Origin: Candidatus Bathyarchaeota archaeon
GTDB lineage: Archaea; Thermoproteota; Bathyarchaeia; Bathyarchaeales; DTEX01
Reading direction: 5' to 3'
DNA length: 64,000 nucleotides
NCBI GenBank assembly: GCA_018396635.1
Contig: JAGTQE010000005.1
Location: forward strand, 11,325 to 75,324
Part shown: positions 6,132 through 12,070 of the stretch, piece by piece
How positions within the stretch are numbered: position 1 is the first letter of the stretch
How the letters are laid out: every line of letters starts with the position of its first letter
The notes under the pieces: model-generated
Database searches by the model: none
Told to the model about the DNA's origin: nothing
Seen by the model: the letters and a program-made list of their open reading frames with translations, nothing else
Translations under genes and position numbers: made by a program

Positions 6132-7376
6132 TCATGACGCAAATATCTTTATGAGGGCCTCCAGGTCCGCTTCTATCTCAACTGGCTTAGGGAATTGCCT
6201 TAAAACAATATCTGGATCTTTCAGTCCATGCCCGGTGAGTATGCAGACAACAGTCTCATCCCTATCTATTAGCTTCATGTCCGCAAGCTTTATCAATCCA
6301 GCTATAGCCGCCGCGCTTGCCGGCTCAACGAAAATGCCCTCTCGCCTAGCTAAAAGCGCCTGGGCGCTCAGTATCTCCTCATCGGAGACCGTTTCAGCCA
6401 GTCCGCCGGACTCCTTAATGGCTTTAACTGCCTTCTTCCAGTTAACCGGCGAACCTATCCTTATGGCTGTTGCAATGGTTTCCGGCCTCTCAACAAACCT
6501 CATCTCCTTTAAACCCCCCTTAATGAAGTTAGCTATTGGCGCAGCACCTTCAGATTGTATTCCAATCATTTCGGGAAGCTTCTCTATTAAGCCAGCCATA
6601 TACAGCTCCTTGAAGCCCTTCCATATGGCGCTGATATTGCCAGCATTCCCAACGGGAACTATAACCTTATCTGGCACCTTATGGCCCATCTGATCCCATA
6701 TCTCGAAGGCTATTGTCTTCTGCCCCTCAAGCCTATACGGATTTATCGAGTTCAATAAATATATTGGTTGCGTTAAGCAAAGCTCCTCAACGATTCTAAG
6801 AGCTTCATCAAAATTTCCCTTGACCTGAATTACCCTAGCTCCATGAATTATCGCTTGGACAAGCTTGCCGAACGCCACTTTACCTGAAGGGATTAGCACA
6901 ATGCATTCCAACCCGGCTTTAGCCGCATATGCCGCTAAGGAGGCGGAAGTGTTACCTGTTGAGGCGCATGCAACCCTCTTCATGTCAAGTTCTAGAGCCT
7001 TAGTTACTCCAACAGTCATTCCCCTATCCTTGAATGACCCGGTTGGATTCTCGCCCTCATTCTTCACATAGAGGTTCTTTAGGTTTAATTCGCATCCAAG
7101 CCTAACACACCTGTTCAGGCTTGTCCCGCCTTCGCCCAAACTCACCATTTTACTACTATCGCTTATTGGTAGCAGCTCTATGTAGCGCCAGACGGTTAGG
7201 GGTCTCGAAGCCCACCTTAGAGATATTTCAGGGCTCATTAAATCATTATTATATTCAACTGAGAGGAGTTCTCCACAGCTAGAACACTTATAAATGATTG
7301 TGTTTGGAGGAAACTCAGCCCCGCATCCTATACATTTTAGGCGATAATGCCAGGCCATAGATCTTCTCCCATTCAT
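6132..7376 (-). CDS. thrC: threonine synthase
   Basis: N-terminal Cys4 ribbon (CIGCG...CSSCG). It carries the canonical PLP lysine motif NPTGSFKDRG, then ASTGNTSASLAAYAA and the phosphate loop PVGNAGNISA. Confidence 0.85.
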   Translation of the reverse strand: MNGRRSMAWHYRLKCIGCGAEFPPNTIIYKCSSCGELLSVEYNNDLMSPEISLRWASRPLTVWRYIELLPISDSSKMVSLGEGGTSLNRCVRLGCELNLKNLYVKNEGENPTGSFKDRGMTVGVTKALELDMKRVACASTGNTSASLAAYAAKAGLECIVLIPSGKVAFGKLVQAIIHGARVIQVKGNFDEALRIVEELCLTQPIYLLNSINPYRLEGQKTIAFEIWDQMGHKVPDKVIVPVGNAGNISAIWKGFKELYMAGLIEKLPEMIGIQSEGAAPIANFIKGGLKEMRFVERPETIATAIRIGSPVNWKKAVKAIKESGGLAETVSDEEILSAQALLARREGIFVEPASAAAIAGLIKLADMKLIDRDETVVCILTGHGLKDPDIVLRQFPKPVEIEADLEALIKIFAS

Positions 7377-7467
7377 CCTATAAATGCTGAGACTGGCCTT
7401 CCCACCTATAAAATTATTTCAGGGATCTTAAAATAATAATGGTGAATTAGCTTCGAGGGCGACAAGC

Positions 7468-8862
7468 GTGCTTGCATGTACTGAGTGCGGGGAAAAGCTG
7501 GAGGAGGACTATCCGAGAGATAAATGCCCAAAATGTGGCGGGAAGGGCACTTTAGAGTATCAAATGGACCTTGAGGAGCTGAGGGCTGCCGAGTTTACAG
7601 GGGAGTTCTCATTCTGGAGGTATAGGGCGCTTCTCCCAAAAGTAAAGAATTATGCGACTTTACATGAGGGTGGAACTCCACTATATAAGGCTGAGCGCCT
7701 AGCAAAATATATTGGTCTCCCAAAATTATACTTGAAGGATGAAACCAGGAACCCTACAAACTCCTTTAGAGATAGGGCCGCCGCACTGATGGTTTCAAAT
7801 ATGCTAGATTTTGGCTACACAGCTGCGATATGTGCCTCAAGCGGCAATATGGGTGCATCCCTATCCGCCTACTGCGCCAGGTACGGCATAATATGTCATG
7901 TTATAGTACCCGAGTACGTTGATATGGGTAAGATGGCTCAGATGATAGTGTATGATGCTGTGATTGAGGAGTATGGTAAAACCGTTGATGAAGCGATAGA
8001 GAGGGCTGAGAAGATAGTTGAGGAGACTGGCTGGTATCAGGCCACATCAGCGCTGAATCCACTCGTCATTGAAGCACAGAAAACAGTGGCTTTCGAAATA
8101 GCCGAGCAGATAGGTGTCCCAGATGTTATTGTTGTCCCAATGGGTAGCGGGGGAACAATATACTCTATATGGAAAGGCTTCAGGGAGCTTAATGATCTAG
8201 GTAAAGTAAAGGGTATGCCAAGGCTTATTGGAGTCCAGTCGAGCGGGTGCCCGCCTATAGTTAACGCTTTCCTTGAAAGGGAGGGCGAGCAGGAAACGCT
8301 ATGGACTAAGGCCACAAGCATATTCGTCCTAAACCCATTCAAAAAGAAGCTTGCCATAAAGGCCATAAGGGAGACTGGGGGCCTCGCCCTCTCAGTATCT
8401 GACCAAGAGATGCTTGAAGCTGAGCGGGAAATTGCCAAGATGGAGGGACTATTCGCTGAGCCAGCCAGCTCCGGGACCATAGCGGCCCTTAAGAAGCTCG
8501 CTCAGGAGTCAGCCATCGGCAGAGATGAGAACGTCGTATGTATAATGACTGGGAGCGGGCTTAAGGCAACAGATGTCCTACAGGCCTTATCTAAAAAGCG
8601 TAAAATAGCCTTATTAGAGGCTGAGTTTAGCACAAAGGAGAAGATACTTCGCATAATATCGCGGAAGAAGACTTATGGATATGAGATATGGAAGGAGCTG
8701 GGCAGAGTTATGACTAAGGCAGCCATATACCAGCATCTAAACGACCTAAGGAATAGGGGCCTAATATCTGTTCAGGTGAAGGATGGGAGAAAATATTTCA
8801 CAATAACCCAGAGAGGTAGGAGGGTGCTTGCCGCCATAGACGAAGTAAAAGCACTTCTTTAG
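7468..8862 (+). CDS. threonine-synthase-like (fold-type II PLP) domain lacking the Schiff-base lysine, fused to a C-terminal PadR-like winged-helix domain
   Basis: GTG start and Zn ribbon CTECG...CPKCG. The motif reads NPTNSFRDRA, with codon AGA at 7768..7770 where thrC has Lys. It retains SSGNMGASLSAY and PMGSGGTIYS. The C-terminal ~75 aa, KKTYGYEIWKEL...IYQHLNDLRNRGLISVQVKDGRKYFTITQRGRRVL, is PadR-like. Confidence 0.75.
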   Translation: MLACTECGEKLEEDYPRDKCPKCGGKGTLEYQMDLEELRAAEFTGEFSFWRYRALLPKVKNYATLHEGGTPLYKAERLAKYIGLPKLYLKDETRNPTNSFRDRAAALMVSNMLDFGYTAAICASSGNMGASLSAYCARYGIICHVIVPEYVDMGKMAQMIVYDAVIEEYGKTVDEAIERAEKIVEETGWYQATSALNPLVIEAQKTVAFEIAEQIGVPDVIVVPMGSGGTIYSIWKGFRELNDLGKVKGMPRLIGVQSSGCPPIVNAFLEREGEQETLWTKATSIFVLNPFKKKLAIKAIRETGGLALSVSDQEMLEAEREIAKMEGLFAEPASSGTIAALKKLAQESAIGRDENVVCIMTGSGLKATDVLQALSKKRKIALLEAEFSTKEKILRIISRKKTYGYEIWKELGRVMTKAAIYQHLNDLRNRGLISVQVKDGRKYFTITQRGRRVLAAIDEVKALL

Positions 8863-8896
8863 ACTTGATATGCCAGTTAACAGCAATTTTTAAATA

Positions 8897-8940
8897 ATAG
8901 TTTAGTTACAACTATACTAATCAACTTATAACTATACTAA
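8897..8940. promoter_or_regulatory. candidate operator: imperfect palindrome ATAGTTTAGTT-AC-AACTATACTAA plus an extra AACTATACTAA half-site
   Basis: AACTATACTAA occurs at 8910..8920 and 8930..8940. The palindrome at 8897..8920 matches the reverse complement of the 11261..11284 site at 22/24 positions. Its right edge is 28 nt from ATG 8948. Confidence 0.55.
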
Positions 8941-8947
8941 TGAGGGC

Positions 8948-9481
8948 ATGCGCATGGAGAAAAGAAGGGAGAGTCTCTCCAGAAGAGTGTCATTTCTGGG
9001 AATCGCCATAGCGCTCGTATACGTGGCCACCTCCATCTCAATTCCCATGCCTAAACCATTAGGCGTCTGGCATATTGGAGATATAGCGTCATTTATCGTC
9101 GCCATATTCTTCGGCCCACTTATCGGAGCACTTGCATGTGGGGTTGGCGCAATGCTCTTTGACATATGGAATCCATTATGGGGCAGCAGTTTCATTATAT
9201 GGGCTCCGGCAACGCTTATAATTAGGGGGTTCATGGGCTTCTTGCTCGGGAAGATGAGGAAGATTATGCCGAATAAGCCCAGATTCTCAGAGATATTGGC
9301 TATGATAATTGCCTCTATTCAAAAAAATGTTTGTTACTTCCTTTACGATTACGCCCTTTTTGGATCAGTAGCCTTCTTAGATTTAATAACATTTTTCCCA
9401 TTAAGTGCACTCGACATAATTGTAGCGGTGCCGTTAATATCCTCAATACGAAAGATACTAAAAGTTGAGTATTACTGCTAG
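8948..9481 (+). CDS. ECF-transporter S-component-like small membrane protein
   Basis: 177 aa with about 5-6 TM segments. FFGPLIGALACGVGAMLFDI and APATLIIRGFMGFLLG are typical of ECF substrate-capture proteins. It is a paralogue of 11315..12070. Confidence 0.6.
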   Translation: MRMEKRRESLSRRVSFLGIAIALVYVATSISIPMPKPLGVWHIGDIASFIVAIFFGPLIGALACGVGAMLFDIWNPLWGSSFIIWAPATLIIRGFMGFLLGKMRKIMPNKPRFSEILAMIIASIQKNVCYFLYDYALFGSVAFLDLITFFPLSALDIIVAVPLISSIRKILKVEYYC

Positions 9482-9494
9482 CCGAGGTGTCATA

Positions 9495-10211
9495 ATGAAT
9501 ATAATAGATTCCCACACCCATCTCGGAACTTTCCCACTTTTCAATGTTAGTATGGATTCTGCTGAGATGATATCAATAATGAATCAATATGGAATTAAAA
9601 TCAGCGTAGTCTTCTCCTTGCCAAATGAGCTAACATTAGACGCGGTGAAAAAATATCCTGAAAGACTTATCGGTTTAGTATGGATTAATCCGCATGAGGG
9701 TAACTTAGCCCTACAAAAAGTGGATAGGGCAATTAACGAGTGGGGGTTTAAAGGGATAAAGATGCATCCCCTCCTAGATTCTTTCCTCCCGGATCAGGAG
9801 ATAGTTTATCCAGTAATGGAGAGAGCCCGAAAATATAGGGTTCCAATATTATTTCACTGTGGACATCCACCATGGTCTCTTCCATGGCACTTCAGCAACC
9901 TAGCTGAGGTATATCCCGATGTTACAATTATTTTGGGTCACATGGGCCATGGGCATATAGTGTATATTAATGGCTCGATTGATGTTGCGAGAAAACATGA
10001 AAATATAATCTTAGAAACATCAGCGATGCCCATGCATAGGAAGATTAAAGAGGCTGTTGAGAAGGTTGGCGAGGACAGAGTCATTTATGGATCAGATATG
10101 CCATTTGGGCATCCCTCATTCGAGATAAGGAAGGTCGAGGTTTCCGGTCTATCAGAGAAGCAGATTGAAATGGTTTTAAGTGTAAATGCACGCAAAATAT
10201 TTCGCTTATAA
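9495..10211 (+). CDS. amidohydrolase-family metal-dependent TIM-barrel hydrolase
   Basis: MNIIDSHTHLG N-terminus (HxH metal motif), plus later GHMGHGH and GSDMPFGH. I moved the start from the track's 9465 to ATG 9495, which sits just after the upstream stop. Confidence 0.7.
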   Translation: MNIIDSHTHLGTFPLFNVSMDSAEMISIMNQYGIKISVVFSLPNELTLDAVKKYPERLIGLVWINPHEGNLALQKVDRAINEWGFKGIKMHPLLDSFLPDQEIVYPVMERARKYRVPILFHCGHPPWSLPWHFSNLAEVYPDVTIILGHMGHGHIVYINGSIDVARKHENIILETSAMPMHRKIKEAVEKVGEDRVIYGSDMPFGHPSFEIRKVEVSGLSEKQIEMVLSVNARKIFRL

Positions 10212-10269
10212 AAGCATCGTCATGACGCAATGAAAATATTTATTTAGCGAATATTCTAGTGATTTTTGT

Positions 10270-11220
10270 ATGGCAGCTTCTTTAAAAGATGCTTTAGAAA
10301 AAACTAGTGAGTTTATCTCCACAGCCATAGGAAGGTATGGCAACAATCTTTTCGGATCCATTGTCTTTGGCAGTCTCGTTAAAGGGACCTGGCGTAAGAG
10401 CAGTGATGTCGACATAATATTACTATTTAACAAGTGTAACTACTCGAGAAGTGTGAGTTTTTACGGAGACCTAAAATTTGAGGTTTACAACATGCCTTTA
10501 AAGGTATTCTTCTCGCCTTTTTCCGGTGATGGAAAAAATCTTTTCTTTGACATGTTCCGCCTACAAGTGCTGAGAACCGGAAAGATTCTTTATGAGAGAG
10601 ACAATTTATTGAGCCAACTATTCACCAAACTGCGTGAACAAAGAATCTCCCGCAGATATTTAGATGAAGCATTGAGTAAGTTCTATAATTTAATAAATGC
10701 TGCTGAAATATACCTTAGTAGAGGGCGCATTGAGAAGGCCGAGTTAAGTTTAAGGGATTCTTCAATTAACCTTGCAAGGGCATTGTTGATGAAAATAAAT
10801 ATCCCTGAAATAAATACTCCTAGACTACTGATCCCACATTTACGTGAAAGGTCTCCAGAGCTTTATGAAGTAATTAGGGAAGTATATGGGTTAAATTATG
10901 TGGGGAGAAATGAAGCCGAGACTAGAATTAGAGAGGTTAAAGAGACGCTAAATAATATTAAACGTAGGTTTAAGAGAAATATTAGACTTAAGGGAGTTAT
11001 CGACATGGTGGAGAATGAGTTATTAAGCGCCGAAGACTGCCTAGAAGACGGCGACTACGACTCAGCAATACTACAGGCAGAATTCTCTCAATCAATACTC
11101 ATAAAAAATCCATTTATGCGTAATGAATATTGGTTACATACTTCCAAGCCGAATATTGAAAGGAGAGACATAAAAGAATGTATCGGACTTCTAAGAGAGA
11201 TTAAAGAGAAGTATTTATGA
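10270..11220 (+). CDS. nucleotidyltransferase-domain protein with long helical C-terminal region
   Basis: GSIVFGSLVKGTWRKSSDVDIILLF is a minimal Pol-beta-type NTase motif (GS...DxD). The C-terminal ~200 aa are predicted helical and contain one RLLIPH (Rx4H) match. Confidence 0.65.
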   Translation: MAASLKDALEKTSEFISTAIGRYGNNLFGSIVFGSLVKGTWRKSSDVDIILLFNKCNYSRSVSFYGDLKFEVYNMPLKVFFSPFSGDGKNLFFDMFRLQVLRTGKILYERDNLLSQLFTKLREQRISRRYLDEALSKFYNLINAAEIYLSRGRIEKAELSLRDSSINLARALLMKINIPEINTPRLLIPHLRERSPELYEVIREVYGLNYVGRNEAETRIREVKETLNNIKRRFKRNIRLKGVIDMVENELLSAEDCLEDGDYDSAILQAEFSQSILIKNPFMRNEYWLHTSKPNIERRDIKECIGLLREIKEKYL

Positions 11221-11260
11221 GAGCCCCTTGGCTAAGAAGAGCAGTTAAGAAAAAGCTTTA

Positions 11261-11284
11261 TTAGTATAGTTGTAACTATACTAA
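11261..11284. promoter_or_regulatory. candidate operator: perfect palindrome TTAGTATAGTT-GT-AACTATACTAA
   Basis: 11-bp perfectly complementary arms with a 2-bp spacer. The right edge is 31 nt upstream of ATG 11315. It shares the AACTATACTAATCA core with the 8897..8940 site. Confidence 0.6.
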
Positions 11285-11314
11285 TCAGATTCAACTGAAC
11301 ATGGAGGTTTATAA

Positions 11315-12070
11315 ATGCCTGAAGAAGCCAAAGCACCTGAGAGGAGACCGACATCATTAAACCTCATATTTGCCGCGATCTCAACTGCTCTAGTATGTAT
11401 TGCAACCATGTTCTTTAGCATGTATGTTCCGGCGACTAGGGGCTTCTTTAATATAGGTGAGTCTATGGTTTACCTATCAGCCCTACTTTTCGGGCCGTTT
11501 GTTGGGGCTTTTGCTGGCGGTGTTGGCTCAATGCTCGCCGACATACTGTTAGGCTACACGTATTACGCTCCGGCAACATTAGTGATTAAGGCATCAGAGG
11601 GCTTTATAGTCGGCTATCTGAGTAGGCGTAACCCTAAGCTTAATAGGGTTGGCTGGAGAACGCTTACAACAATCTTAGCGGTCGTTGCTGGAGCGCTATT
11701 AGCGGTCATCGGCTCAGCCTACTATAGCGGTGAAGTTGAGCTGACTTTAGGGCAAGCAATAATACCACTCTACATTCCGGAACTATTCTGGTTTATATTG
11801 AGCCTTATTGTTACAGCATCCATAATTGTGGTAGGTTTAGTCACAGAACCTGAGGCCGGCTGGACAATACTCTCACTGATGGTTGGCGGCCTTGCGATGG
11901 TTCTAGGATACTTCATCTATCAGATGTATCTTTTGTTCCCGCTCTTCGGCATAGAGGCGATAGCTGTGGCCGAAATACCAGTTAATATAGGGCAGATGAT
12001 TATAGGCTTAATAATAGCAACACCGGTGGCAAAAATCATAAAGAGGGAATTCTCCATAGGCGCCAAGTGA
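11315..12070 (+). CDS. ECF-transporter S-component-like membrane protein
   Basis: 251 aa and polytopic. LFGPFVGAFAGGVGSMLADI and APATLVIKASEGFIVGYL align with the 8948..9481 product. Confidence 0.6.
   Translation: MPEEAKAPERRPTSLNLIFAAISTALVCIATMFFSMYVPATRGFFNIGESMVYLSALLFGPFVGAFAGGVGSMLADILLGYTYYAPATLVIKASEGFIVGYLSRRNPKLNRVGWRTLTTILAVVAGALLAVIGSAYYSGEVELTLGQAIIPLYIPELFWFILSLIVTASIIVVGLVTEPEAGWTILSLMVGGLAMVLGYFIYQMYLLFPLFGIEAIAVAEIPVNIGQMIIGLIIATPVAKIIKREFSIGAK

What the first reader, a model, noticed from the sequence alone, without database searches (positions are those of the whole stretch)
8897..11284. Shared 11-bp-arm palindromic operator upstream of two paralogous S-component-like transporter genes
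TTAGTATAGTT-GT-AACTATACTAA (11261..11284) is a perfect inverted repeat ending 31 nt before ATG 11315. Its reverse complement recurs at 22/24 identity at 8897..8920, ending 28 nt before ATG 8948. A third exact AACTATACTAA half-site lies at 8930..8940. So the window holds three exact copies of the 11-mer, one exact inverted copy and one 9/11 inverted copy, and I saw no further exact copy elsewhere in it. All sit at the same promoter-proximal position of two paralogous genes, which points to a dimeric transcription-factor site overlapping the TATA/BRE region. Simple duplication of promoter DNA would not explain it.
Basis: seen in the sequence. Interest (0 to 1): 0.7.

Follow-up and report, generated by a model that had tools for sequence, protein, structure and literature searches.

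The report
Conserved archaeal operator, probable B6 regulon
The 24-bp palindrome in front of two transporter genes is a real, highly conserved regulatory site of Bathyarchaeia; it is most likely bound by the neighbouring "threonine synthase" look-alike, which has lost its catalytic lysine and gained a DNA-binding domain, and it appears to control vitamin B6 uptake and synthesis.

Summary
A perfect 24-bp palindrome lies at 11261-11284, a 22/24 copy at 8897-8920 and an extra half-site at 8930-8940. None is expected by chance and there is no other copy in the window.

It is not a dispersed repeat. In 79 Bathyarchaeia species, 70 carry the same palindrome (consensus ATAGTATAGTT-NN-AACTATACTAT) just upstream of the orthologous transporter gene. 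It follows a BRE/TATA-like element and ends a median 11-14 nt before the start codon. No other hit occurs in 923 kb.

In 64 of those 70 loci the gene directly upstream is the ThrC-like/PadR fusion (Fisher p = 1e-6). That protein is a pseudoenzyme: the PLP Schiff-base lysine is replaced in 62/63 orthologues and in 36/38 distant fusions.

The transporters match only HmpT/PdxU2, a pyridoxamine S-component, among solved structures. In two independent metagenome contigs the fusion-plus-palindrome unit precedes pdxS or pdxS-pdxT instead.

Best reading: this is the operator of a ligand-sensing repressor, an archaeal functional analogue of bacterial PdxR. Operator status and the identity of the regulator are well supported by comparative evidence. 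The B6 effector is inferred. DNA binding and transcription starts are untested.

The parts
7468..8862 (+). Gene for the candidate regulator: N-terminal Zn-ribbon, ThrC-like (PLP fold type II) pseudoenzyme domain, and C-terminal PadR-type winged helix (464 aa)
   Evidence: Pfam PALP E = 4e-77 and PadR 43.9 bits against a cutoff of 27. It sits directly upstream of the palindrome in 64/70 motif-bearing species loci.
7768..7770 (+). Codon for Arg101, which replaces the PLP Schiff-base lysine (SFKDRG in ThrC becomes SFRDRA)
   Evidence: Aligned to Lys of 2zsj and 2d1f threonine synthases. Arg in 62/63 and 29/29 orthologues. Non-Lys in 36/38 distant fusions.
8623..8859 (+). Winged helix-turn-helix domain (about residues 386-464), with predicted recognition helix TKAAIYQHLNDL
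   Evidence: The AlphaFold2 model has helices 389-399, 404-410 and 417-429, a wing at 433-446 and a helix at 448-463. The helix T(R/K)AA(I/V)YQHL is nearly invariant across orthologues. PDB sequence hits are PadR-family proteins.
8887..8896 (+). TATA-like element TTTTTAAATA of the S1 promoter (inferred)
   Evidence: Read from the sequence. The same position is T/A-rich and is preceded by an A-rich BRE-like stretch in 70 orthologous promoters.
8897..8920 (.). Operator site 1 of the S1 promoter: ATAGTTTAGTT-AC-AACTATACTAA
   Evidence: PWM score 34.5 bits.
8917..8940 (.). Operator site 2 (weak left arm, perfect right arm at 8930-8940), offset +20 bp from site 1
   Evidence: PWM score 18.2 bits. 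The same +20 bp tandem site occurs in L007-L009, L011-L014, L019, L020 and L033.
8954..9481 (+). S1: ECF S-component-like membrane protein (175 aa, or 177 aa from ATG 8948)
   Evidence: PF07155 E = 5e-20. The only PDB hit is HmpT/PdxU2, 4HZU_S. Gene call.
9495..10211 (+). Amidohydro_2-family gene, apparently in an operon with S1; role unknown
   Evidence: PF04909 E = 2e-28. Homologues lie next to the fusion or the S gene in L025, L029, L038, L055, L063, L067, L073 and L074.
11247..11264 (+). BRE-like AAGAAAAAG plus TATA-like CTTTATTAG of the S2 promoter (inferred); the TATA-like part overlaps the first 4 bp of the palindrome
   Evidence: Sequence and the conserved upstream profile.
11261..11284 (.). 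Operator of the S2 promoter: perfect palindrome TTAGTATAGTT-GT-AACTATACTAA
   Evidence: PWM score 37.0 bits. Orthologous sites in 70/79 species.
11315..12070 (+). S2: ECF S-component-like membrane protein (251 aa), the conserved target gene
   Evidence: PF07155 E = 7e-34. The only PDB hit is 4HZU_S, E = 1.7e-11 for the single sequence and 7e-14 for the profile. GGAGG at 11303-11307 precedes the ATG.

Best explanation
The palindrome is the DNA operator of a one-component, ligand-sensing transcription factor encoded next door (7468-8862).

That protein is a duplicated threonine synthase. It has lost the PLP Schiff-base lysine and carries a C-terminal PadR-type winged helix.

Proposed mechanism (inferred):
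1. The protein dimerises through the ThrC-like domain.
2. Its two winged helices read the two arms, ATAGTWWAGTT / AACTWWACTAT.
3. The site runs from the 3' edge of the TATA-like element to the predicted transcription start, so occupancy would block TBP/TFB or RNA polymerase and repress the gene.
4. In the window's clade a second site 20 bp downstream, about two helical turns away, would allow cooperative binding of a second dimer.

The regulated genes are HmpT/PdxU2-like S-component transporters (S2, and S1 with an amidohydrolase). In other Bathyarchaeia they are pdxS-pdxT. The effector is therefore most likely a vitamin B6 form (PLP or a related vitamer) held non-covalently in the former active site. 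Uptake and synthesis would then be shut off when B6 is replete.

Status of each step:
- Shown: the motif, its conservation and position, its exclusive association with these genes, its co-occurrence with the fusion gene, and the lysine loss.
- Inferred: binding by this protein, repression, and B6 as the effector.
For: 1. Reality. There are 2 hits against 0 expected. The same 24-mer lies upstream of the S2 orthologue in 70/79 GTDB Bathyarchaeia species, although the proteins are only 50-80% identical.
2. Specificity. All 85 PWM hits of at least 12 bits in 923 kb lie in these promoters. Each of 87 archaeal-type metagenome loci (614 kb) has exactly one site.
3. Promoter position. An A-rich stretch at -11 to -7 and a T/A-rich stretch at -5 to -1 precede the palindrome. 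The median distance from palindrome end to start codon is 11-14 nt.
4. DNA site, not RNA. Arm changes are one-sided (21 and 26 cases at positions 6/19 and 7/18) with 0-1 compensatory changes. There is no Rfam hit.
5. Regulator. The fusion gene is adjacent in 64/70 motif loci and in 1/9 motif-less loci, Fisher p = 9.6e-7. Its recognition helix is as invariant as the operator. The motif travels with the S gene when gene order differs, as at window S2, L010, L036, L069 and L072.
6. Sensor. Lys is replaced by Arg in 62/63 and 29/29 orthologues, and by a non-Lys residue in 36/38 distant fusions, while the Gly-rich loop, EPAS and TGSGLK motifs stay conserved.
7. B6 link. S1 and S2 hit only HmpT/PdxU2 in the PDB; it is a pyridoxamine transporter (PMC4860826), and PdxU and PdxU2 belong to PF07155 (PMC9997740). 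L138 and L216 show fusion, then palindrome, then pdxS 12-14 nt downstream, with pdxS-pdxT in L216. L216 keeps the synteny of L207/L208 with pdxST in place of the transporter.
8. Expression. The fusion, S1 and S2 are transcribed in a hot-spring metatranscriptome.
Against: - There is no binding, footprint or transcription-start evidence. The only RNA run gave contigs without 5' ends.
- The regulator's own promoter (7377-7467) has no site.
- Six loci have the motif without the fusion within 6 kb, and one (L062) has the fusion without the motif.
- The pdxS link rests on two contigs.
- Distant ThrC-wHTH fusions, for example in a 1.96-Mb archaeal genome, are not next to B6 genes and have no such palindrome nearby.
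- The residue replacing the lysine varies widely across the family (R, L, M, F, I, V, S, T, Y, H, E). The ligand therefore need not be PLP.
- The HmpT pocket residues are only partly kept: E41 = E49, but H84 becomes K92 and Q87 becomes E95.
- The amidohydrolase partner has no known B6 role.
Confidence: 0.65

Rival explanations
1. The operator and regulator are as above, but the effector and the transported substrate are not vitamin B6. The ThrC-like domain would sense an amino-acid-pathway metabolite such as O-phosphohomoserine, threonine or a related compound. The S-components would import something else.
For: The sensor derives from threonine synthase and sits beside a canonical thrC. The residue replacing the lysine is variable. 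The S pocket differs from that of HmpT. The co-transcribed Amidohydro_2 gene has no obvious B6 role.
Against: Two independent fusion-palindrome-pdxS(T) contigs exist. The only solved relative of S1 and S2 is the pyridoxamine transporter. The thrC/fusion intergenic region carries no site. In the alignment to ThrC, the motifs NSVNPYRIEGQKT and STGNTS are changed to TSALNPLVIEAQKT and SSGNMG. These are the motifs I recall, from memory of ThrC structures, as binding the substrate phosphate.
Confidence: 0.2
2. The palindrome is the site of a different, unlinked regulator. One example is the riboflavin kinase/regulator RbkR acting on RibU-like riboflavin transporters. The adjacency of the ThrC-PadR gene would then be coincidental or metabolic.
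For: PF07155 is named after riboflavin S-components. RbkR controls ribU in some Thermoproteota through 16-20 bp palindromes that vary by lineage (PMC5397151).
Against: None of the published RbkR consensus motifs fits: AAACT-N2-AGTTT, TTAC-N10-GTAA, TnAG-N6-CTnA, TAAAA-N6-TTTTA, TnnCA-N4-TGnnA. NCBIfam RibU scores are far below cutoff, 18-28 against 99 bits. RibU structures are not hit in the PDB whereas HmpT is. The motif co-occurs tightly with the fusion gene. pdxST are targets.
Confidence: 0.08
3. It is not a protein operator. It would be a transcribed hairpin (5'-UTR element or terminator of the upstream gene), or simply duplicated core-promoter or repeat DNA.
For: It is a perfect inverted repeat lying 35 nt after the stop of the upstream gene at the first copy. 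The two window promoters are alignable beyond the palindrome.
Against: There is no compensatory covariation, and the frequent one-sided changes would break a stem. The 2-nt spacer is too short for a loop. The motif follows the S or pdxS gene whatever lies upstream. The sequence itself is conserved across a class of archaea, which duplication within one genome cannot explain. There is no Rfam family. There is one copy per locus and no dispersed copies.
Confidence: 0.04

Closest known systems
PdxR and other MocR-family regulators of bacteria (GntR winged helix plus aminotransferase-like PLP domain)
   Same: Both are one-component regulators whose sensor is a PLP-enzyme fold. The PdxR regulon consists of pdxST, salvage genes and the PF07155 transporter pdxU (PMC5320631). 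That is the same gene set seen here: S-components and pdxS-pdxT.
   Different: The sensor fold differs (type II ThrC-like, not type I aminotransferase). The DNA-binding domain differs in family and position (C-terminal PadR-type, not N-terminal GntR). MocR regulators keep the PLP lysine and bind PLP covalently, whereas here the lysine is lost. Apo-PdxR activates pdxST, whereas the site position here suggests repression. The systems are in different domains of life and arose independently.
ThiR and RbkR, archaeal vitamin regulators built from an enzyme domain plus a winged helix
   Same: Same design logic in Archaea: an enzyme-derived sensor fused to a wHTH, palindromic 16-20 bp operators in promoters of vitamin synthesis and uptake genes, and ECF S-components among the targets (RbkR: PMC5397151; ThiR from my own knowledge, paper not held).
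   Different: The enzyme ancestor differs (threonine synthase, against riboflavin kinase or ThiN). The domain order differs (wHTH is C-terminal here). The operator consensus differs from every published RbkR motif. RbkR is still a working kinase, whereas this protein lacks the catalytic lysine.
PadR-family transcription factors
   Same: The C-terminal domain passes the Pfam PadR threshold. It hits PadR structures 4ESF and 6ABT. It has the YGYE/DxW signature and the predicted topology of three helices (389-399, 404-410, 417-429), a wing and a C-terminal helix. PadR proteins bind inverted repeats as dimers.
   Different: Canonical PadR proteins are small stand-alone proteins of about 110-180 aa that dimerise through their own terminal helices. 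Here the domain is appended to a 380-aa sensor that presumably provides dimerisation.
HmpT/PdxU2 (L. brevis ECF S-component, PDB 4HZU chain S)
   Same: It is the only solved structure matched by S1 and S2. It belongs to the same Pfam family, and the pocket Glu41 is conserved as the invariant Glu49. Its substrate was identified as pyridoxamine (PMC4860826).
   Different: The alignment covers mainly profile positions 11-102. Other pocket residues differ (H84 becomes K92, Q87 becomes E95, W76 becomes Y84). S2 carries an insertion and is 251 aa long, against 166 aa. No ECF energising module was seen in the window.

Membership tests
Threonine synthase (the database name of the upstream gene) | PLP Schiff-base lysine in the SFKDRG motif | tested here: not met
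   Arg101 aligns with the Lys of 2zsj and 2d1f. Arg in 62/63 and 29/29 orthologues. The neighbouring canonical ThrC (6132-7376) keeps SFKDRG.
Threonine synthase (the database name of the upstream gene) | Score above curated family cutoffs | tested here: inconclusive
   TIGR00260 gives 213 bits against a cutoff of 167, which is met. NF004170 (PRK05638), the model that also spans the wHTH, gives 403.5 bits against a cutoff of 421, which is not met. Sequence homology is clear; catalytic competence is not.
PadR-family winged-helix DNA-binding domain | Match to PF03551 above the gathering score, with wHTH topology | tested here: met
   43.9 bits against 27, residues 393-455. PadR structures are the top PDB hits. 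The AF2 model has three helices, a wing and a C-terminal helix at pLDDT 77-91.
ECF-transporter S-component (PF07155 / COG4720 group) | Match to PF07155 above the gathering score | tested here: met
   S1 72.7 bits and S2 117.8 bits against a cutoff of 26.7. The 300-aa variants in other loci also match.
ECF-transporter S-component (PF07155 / COG4720 group) | Works with an EcfA/A'/T energising module | not tested
   No EcfA or EcfT genes appear in the 64-kb window annotation. The rest of the genome was not available.
PdxU2/HmpT vitamin B6 transporter | Conserved pocket residues Glu41, His84, Gln87, Tyr120, Asn140, Gln143 and B6 transport | tested here: inconclusive
   Glu41 is kept. His84 and Gln87 are replaced by the invariant Lys92 and Glu95. 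The rest was not aligned confidently. The substrate is not testable here.
RbkR (riboflavin) regulon operator | Operator matching a lineage RbkR consensus, upstream of rib or ribU genes | tested here: not met
   No published consensus fits AGTT-NN-AACT flanked by TAGT/ACTA. The targets include pdxST and no rib genes.
MocR/PdxR family | N-terminal GntR wHTH plus fold-type I aminotransferase-like domain with PLP lysine | tested here: not met
   The domains here are PALP (fold type II) plus a C-terminal PadR domain, and the lysine is lost. The resemblance is functional only.
Archaeal repressor operator | Site overlapping or downstream of TATA/BRE up to the transcription start | tested here: inconclusive
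   A BRE/TATA-like profile lies directly upstream and short distances separate the site from the start codons. No transcription start has been mapped.

The most novel reading that the evidence does not exclude
A whole family of archaeal proteins annotated as 'threonine synthase' would in fact be transcription factors. They are fold-type II PLP pseudoenzymes that lost the catalytic lysine and gained a C-terminal winged helix. The Bathyarchaeia branch would be the archaeal vitamin B6 sensor: it would hold a B6 vitamer non-covalently and repress B6 uptake (HmpT/PdxU2-like S-components) and synthesis (pdxST) through a 24-bp palindrome that is almost invariant across the class. This would be an independent invention of what MocR/PdxR does in bacteria.
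Probability: 0.45. Interest if true: 0.75.

Novelty: new variant of a known kind. Interest (0 to 1): 0.68.

Why it matters
**Vitamin B6 regulation in Archaea.** No regulator of vitamin B6 homeostasis in Archaea appears in the papers I could search, and few B6 transporters are known in any prokaryote (PMC9997740). This locus offers three things:
- a defined operator with a position weight matrix built from 72 sites;
- a named candidate regulator;
- candidate B6 transporters in Bathyarchaeia, an abundant and uncultured group whose vitamin dependencies shape sediment and hot-spring communities.

**Annotation error.** Hundreds of database entries called "threonine synthase" lack the catalytic lysine and carry a DNA-binding domain. 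One NCBIfam threonine synthase model spans that domain. Metabolic reconstructions that count these genes as thrC are therefore wrong.

**Evolution of regulators.** This is a clean example of an enzyme paralogue turned into a ligand sensor. It adds fold type II PLP proteins to the set of enzyme-derived regulators.

**Ease of testing.** The system is simple enough to test in vitro with one recombinant protein and a 24-mer.

Tried and rejected
- **RbkR/riboflavin.** I read PMC5397151. None of its motifs fits, so I rejected it as the regulator.
- **ThiR/thiamine.** The paper is not held. I kept it only as an analogy from memory.
- **RNA element.** Rfam at E <= 1 found nothing, and the pair statistics show no covariation.
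- **Transcription starts from public RNA.** Only one metatranscriptome held the region, and only as assembled contigs. It shows the genes are expressed but gives no 5' ends.
- **Protein search with a 52-aa PdxS fragment.** One fragment (P0241) nevertheless led to the informative contig L216. Two others (P0251, P0263) were unrelated organisms with no motif.
- **Context of distant ThrC-wHTH fusions.** There were no S-component or pdx genes and no palindrome nearby, so the wider family's targets remain unknown.
- **Autoregulation.** There is no site in the fusion gene's own upstream region.
- **AlphaFold2 model of the fusion.** Confidence was only moderate (pLDDT 71). I used it for the wHTH topology only and ran no fold search.
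- **Literature searches for a prior description of the fusion as a regulator.** They found nothing, but many subscription journals are not in the library.
- **Whole-genome regulon of the window's own organism.** I could not obtain it.
Full report

Yes. The window reads TTAGTATAGTT-GT-AACTATACTAA at 11261-11284. This is a perfect palindrome around a 2-nt spacer, and ATG 11315 follows 30 nt later. It reads ATAGTTTAGTT-AC-AACTATACTAA at 8897-8920, with a further AACTATACTAA at 8930-8940.

The exact 11-mer occurs four times on the two strands and nowhere else in 64 kb. The 24-mer with up to three mismatches gives exactly these two hits, against none in 100 dinucleotide-preserving shuffles.

The downstream genes are paralogues. 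S1 (8948/8954-9481) and S2 (11315-12070) both match PF07155, with 39% identity over 110 aa. Gene callers start S1 at 8954.

**2. What organism, and what surrounds the site?**

The same DNA is found in several hot-spring MAGs and metagenomes. All close homologues of S2 are labelled Bathyarchaeia.

The gene order in the window is as follows:
- lactate permease;
- canonical thrC on the minus strand, with SFKDRG intact;
- the ThrC-like/PadR fusion (7468-8862);
- [palindrome] S1, then an Amidohydro_2 gene;
- a nucleotidyltransferase;
- [palindrome] S2;
- fibrillarin and Nop5 on the minus strand.

The rest of the window holds housekeeping and ilv/leu genes. It has no pdx genes and no ECF energising module.

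**3. Conservation**

I fetched 80 loci encoding S2 orthologues, one per GTDB species, all Bathyarchaeia, with 49-80% protein identity. One locus has no upstream sequence.

- In 70 of the remaining 79, the best match to the 24-mer lies just upstream of the gene with at most 6 mismatches, and mostly 1-4.
- The consensus is ATAGTATAGTT-NN-AACTATACTAT. Positions 2-5, 8-11, 14-17 and 20-23 are nearly invariant. Positions 6/7 and 18/19 are only W, and the spacer is free.
- Each arm is itself TAGT-N-TAGT.
- A position weight matrix from these sites was scanned over all 923 kb held at that point. It gave 85 hits of at least 12 bits, every one in an S-gene promoter.
Of these, 85 were archaeal loci of the same kind. 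PWM scanning of those plus L207 and L208 found exactly one site per locus in 87 loci, 614 kb in all.

That criterion is not met.

**4. Position in the promoter**

Aligned on the palindrome, the 70 promoters show an A-rich stretch at -11 to -7 (BRE-like) and a T/A-rich stretch at -5 to -1. This second stretch runs into the ATAG of the left arm and is TATA-like.

With the usual archaeal spacing, where the TATA centre lies about 26 nt before the start, transcription would begin at or just after the last base of the palindrome. The first in-frame start codon follows after a median of 11-14 nt.

In the window the elements are:
- S2 promoter: AAGAAAAAG-CTTTATTAG at 11247-11264, with GGAGG at 11303-11307;
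- S1 promoter: TTTTTAAATA at 8887-8896, with GAGGG at 8942-8946.

The site therefore covers roughly -24 to -1. This is the classical place for an archaeal repressor. The placement is an inference, because no 5' ends could be recovered. The one metatranscriptome that holds the region shows only that the fusion gene, S1 and S2 are expressed in a 95-99% identical relative.

**5. The 'third half-site'**

This is the right arm of a second, weaker 24-mer offset exactly 20 bp from the first and sharing 4 bp with it. The same +20 bp tandem arrangement is present upstream of S2 orthologues in the window's closest relatives: L007-L009, L011-L014, L019, L020 and L033. It is absent in more distant lineages.

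Twenty base pairs is about two helical turns. That fits cooperative binding of a second dimer on the same face of the DNA (inference).

**6. DNA site or RNA structure?**

Departures from the consensus are overwhelmingly one-sided. There are 21 and 26 such cases at pairs 6/19 and 7/18, against 0-1 compensated. The sequence of each arm is conserved, not the pairing. Rfam finds nothing.

The motif also follows the S gene whatever lies upstream. Examples are window S2, which follows a nucleotidyltransferase gene, and L010, L036, L069 and L072, which have no fusion nearby. It is therefore not the terminator of the upstream gene.

**7. Who binds it?**

In 64 of the 70 motif-bearing loci the ThrC-like/PadR fusion gene lies in the same locus, usually ending 20-60 nt before the palindrome. 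Of the 9 loci without the motif, only one has the fusion. Fisher's exact test gives p = 9.6e-7. At least one genome with the motif but no adjacent fusion (B26-2, L069) encodes the fusion elsewhere (P0220).

The C-terminal 80 residues pass the Pfam PadR threshold and hit PadR structures. They are predicted as three helices (389-399, 404-410, 417-429), a wing and a C-terminal helix. The predicted recognition helix T(R/K)AA(I/V)YQHL is almost invariant across orthologues, matching the invariance of the operator.

The most divergent orthologue is L038. Its helix reads TLGAIYQHL, and it has a concerted change (C21 to A) in all three of its sites.

This evidence is circumstantial but strong. It is the standard of evidence used to assign RbkR (PMC5397151).

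**8. The regulator is a pseudoenzyme**

Aligned to solved threonine synthases, the Schiff-base lysine of SFKDRG is Arg101.

- It is Arg in 62/63 orthologues taken from the loci and in 29/29 database orthologues.
- The Gly-rich phosphate loop (MGSGGT), EPAS and TGSGLK remain conserved.
- Motifs that I recall as binding the substrate phosphate in ThrC are altered: STGNTS becomes SSGNMG in the window protein (mostly [ST]NGN[ML]G in orthologues), and NPYRIEGQKT becomes NPLVIEAQKT. This recollection was not verified here.

A search of 1.84 billion representative proteins with the wHTH domain alone found only 95 relatives. Most were 400-500-aa ThrC-like proteins carrying the domain at the C-terminus. 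Of 38 such distant fusions inspected, 36 have R, L, M, F, I, V, S, T, Y, H or E at the lysine position.

Loss of catalysis is therefore a family trait, and the fold serves as a sensor. Databases name these proteins 'threonine synthase', and NCBIfam NF004170 spans the wHTH.

**9. What is sensed and transported?**

Three lines point to vitamin B6.

1. The sensor is a PLP-binding fold that can no longer bind PLP covalently. That suits reversible sensing (inference).
2. Among all solved structures, S1, S2 and the S2 profile match only 4HZU chain S. This is HmpT/PdxU2, whose substrate was identified as pyridoxamine (PMC4860826). PdxU and PdxU2 are the B6 transporters of PF07155 (PMC9997740). Pocket residue Glu41 is kept as the invariant Glu49, but His84 and Gln87 are the invariant Lys92 and Glu95 in S2.
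3. In two independent contigs the fusion-plus-palindrome unit precedes PLP synthase genes.
   - L138: TAGTATAGTTACAACTATACTA lies 12 nt before pdxS, which matches PF01680.
   - L216: ATAGTATAGCTGCAACTATACTAT lies 14 nt before pdxS-pdxT.
   - L216 keeps the neighbourhood of L207/L208 (DNA ligase ... fusion - X - AIRS gene). X is pdxS-pdxT in L216 and the S-component in L207/L208.

The bacterial PdxR regulon contains the same functions: pdxST, salvage genes and pdxU (PMC5320631).

There are counter-indications. The pdxS link rests on only two cases. The Amidohydro_2 partner of S1 is unexplained; its nearest solved relatives are LigW-type decarboxylases and ACMSD. The residue at position 101 varies across the family. 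Distant fusions are not linked to B6 genes.

**10. Mechanism proposed**

A dimer of the fusion protein, loaded with a B6 vitamer, binds the palindrome. In the window's clade a second dimer binds the +20 site. Binding occludes the TATA-to-start region and represses S2 and the S1-amidohydrolase operon. When B6 is scarce the ligand leaves, the protein releases the DNA, and the transporters are made.

My confidence for each step:
- operator: about 0.9;
- this protein as the binder: about 0.75;
- repression rather than activation: about 0.7, from position only;
- B6 as effector: about 0.5-0.55.

**11. Comparison with known systems**

The system works like bacterial PdxR/MocR and like archaeal RbkR and ThiR, where an enzyme-derived sensor plus a wHTH controls vitamin synthesis and uptake. 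It is a member of none of them:
- the sensor fold, the DNA-binding family and the domain order all differ from MocR;
- the operator fits no RbkR consensus.

It is a member of the PadR wHTH family by domain and of the PF07155 S-component family by target. It fails the defining catalytic feature of threonine synthase.

I found no description of this fusion as a regulator in the searchable library. Subscription journals are not covered, so prior description cannot be excluded.

**12. Verdict**

The finding is real and functional, and it opens onto a previously unannotated regulatory family. I rate it a new variant of a known kind, with interest 0.68.

Noticed in passing
L094, L101, L102, L121, L126, L136, L166, L168, L169, L178, L195, L205 (metagenome contigs, 58-64% G+C): The near-identical palindrome TAGTTTAGTT-NN-AACTAAACTA sits just after a TTGACA box and 1-10 nt before genes for about 115-aa ArsR/HTH_20 regulators (MEPAVLEAIASPRRREILRLVW...). 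These genes are often divergent from dienelactone-hydrolase-like or PaiB-like genes. This looks like a separate bacterial autoregulated regulon using almost the same operator. The ArsR-like protein and the window's wHTH share only 28% identity (pairwise E = 5e-4).
   Followed up: partly
window 6132-7376 (-) and 7468-8862 (+): A canonical thrC with the catalytic lysine intact lies divergently next to the lysine-less fusion. The same arrangement occurs in many of the 80 species loci. It suggests the regulator arose by tandem duplication of thrC followed by fusion to a wHTH. The shared 91-bp intergenic region carries no copy of the palindrome.
   Followed up: partly
window 7468-8862; NCBIfam NF004170 (PRK05638): Public records name the fusion and its orthologues 'threonine synthase'. 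The NCBIfam 'threonine synthase' model NF004170 aligns across the wHTH domain as well (profile 2-440 of 442). This looks like a propagated annotation error that affects metabolic reconstructions.
   Followed up: partly
window 8954-12070 compared with L009, L012, L013, L020, L033: Gene order differs from the closest relatives. They have fusion - palindrome - S2 - nucleotidyltransferase - fibrillarin. The window has fusion - palindrome - S1 - amidohydrolase - nucleotidyltransferase - palindrome - S2 - fibrillarin. S2 kept its palindrome after the rearrangement, and the tandem second site stayed next to the fusion gene.
   Followed up: no
L095, L098, L108, L122, L129, L134, L151, L156: In some lineages the palindrome precedes a 300-310-aa membrane protein. 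Its C-terminal half is a PF07155 S-component and its N-terminal roughly 140 residues form an extra hydrophobic extension. This is a third type of target (S3).
   Followed up: partly
L015 and L200 (intergenic region holding the palindrome): A 423-aa UxaC/amidohydrolase-like gene is transcribed divergently from the S2 orthologue and shares the operator-containing intergenic region. It may be co-regulated.
   Followed up: no
window 10197-11044 (nucleotidyltransferase gene 10270-11220): One metatranscriptome contig (run X13) joins 11044 back to 10197 ('goes back 848'). This could be an assembly artefact or a rearranged variant in the related strain.
   Followed up: no
window 10270-11220: A 316-aa protein with an N-terminal MntA-like nucleotidyltransferase domain and a long helical C-terminal part lies between the two regulated units. 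It has no evident link to them.
   Followed up: no
L038 5826-6001: In this divergent species the S1-amidohydrolase operon and S2 are transcribed divergently from one intergenic region that holds three sites. All three carry the same variant arm, ACTATAATA. The fusion protein's recognition helix there reads TLGAIYQHL, and a relative (P0286) keeps the catalytic lysine.
   Followed up: partly
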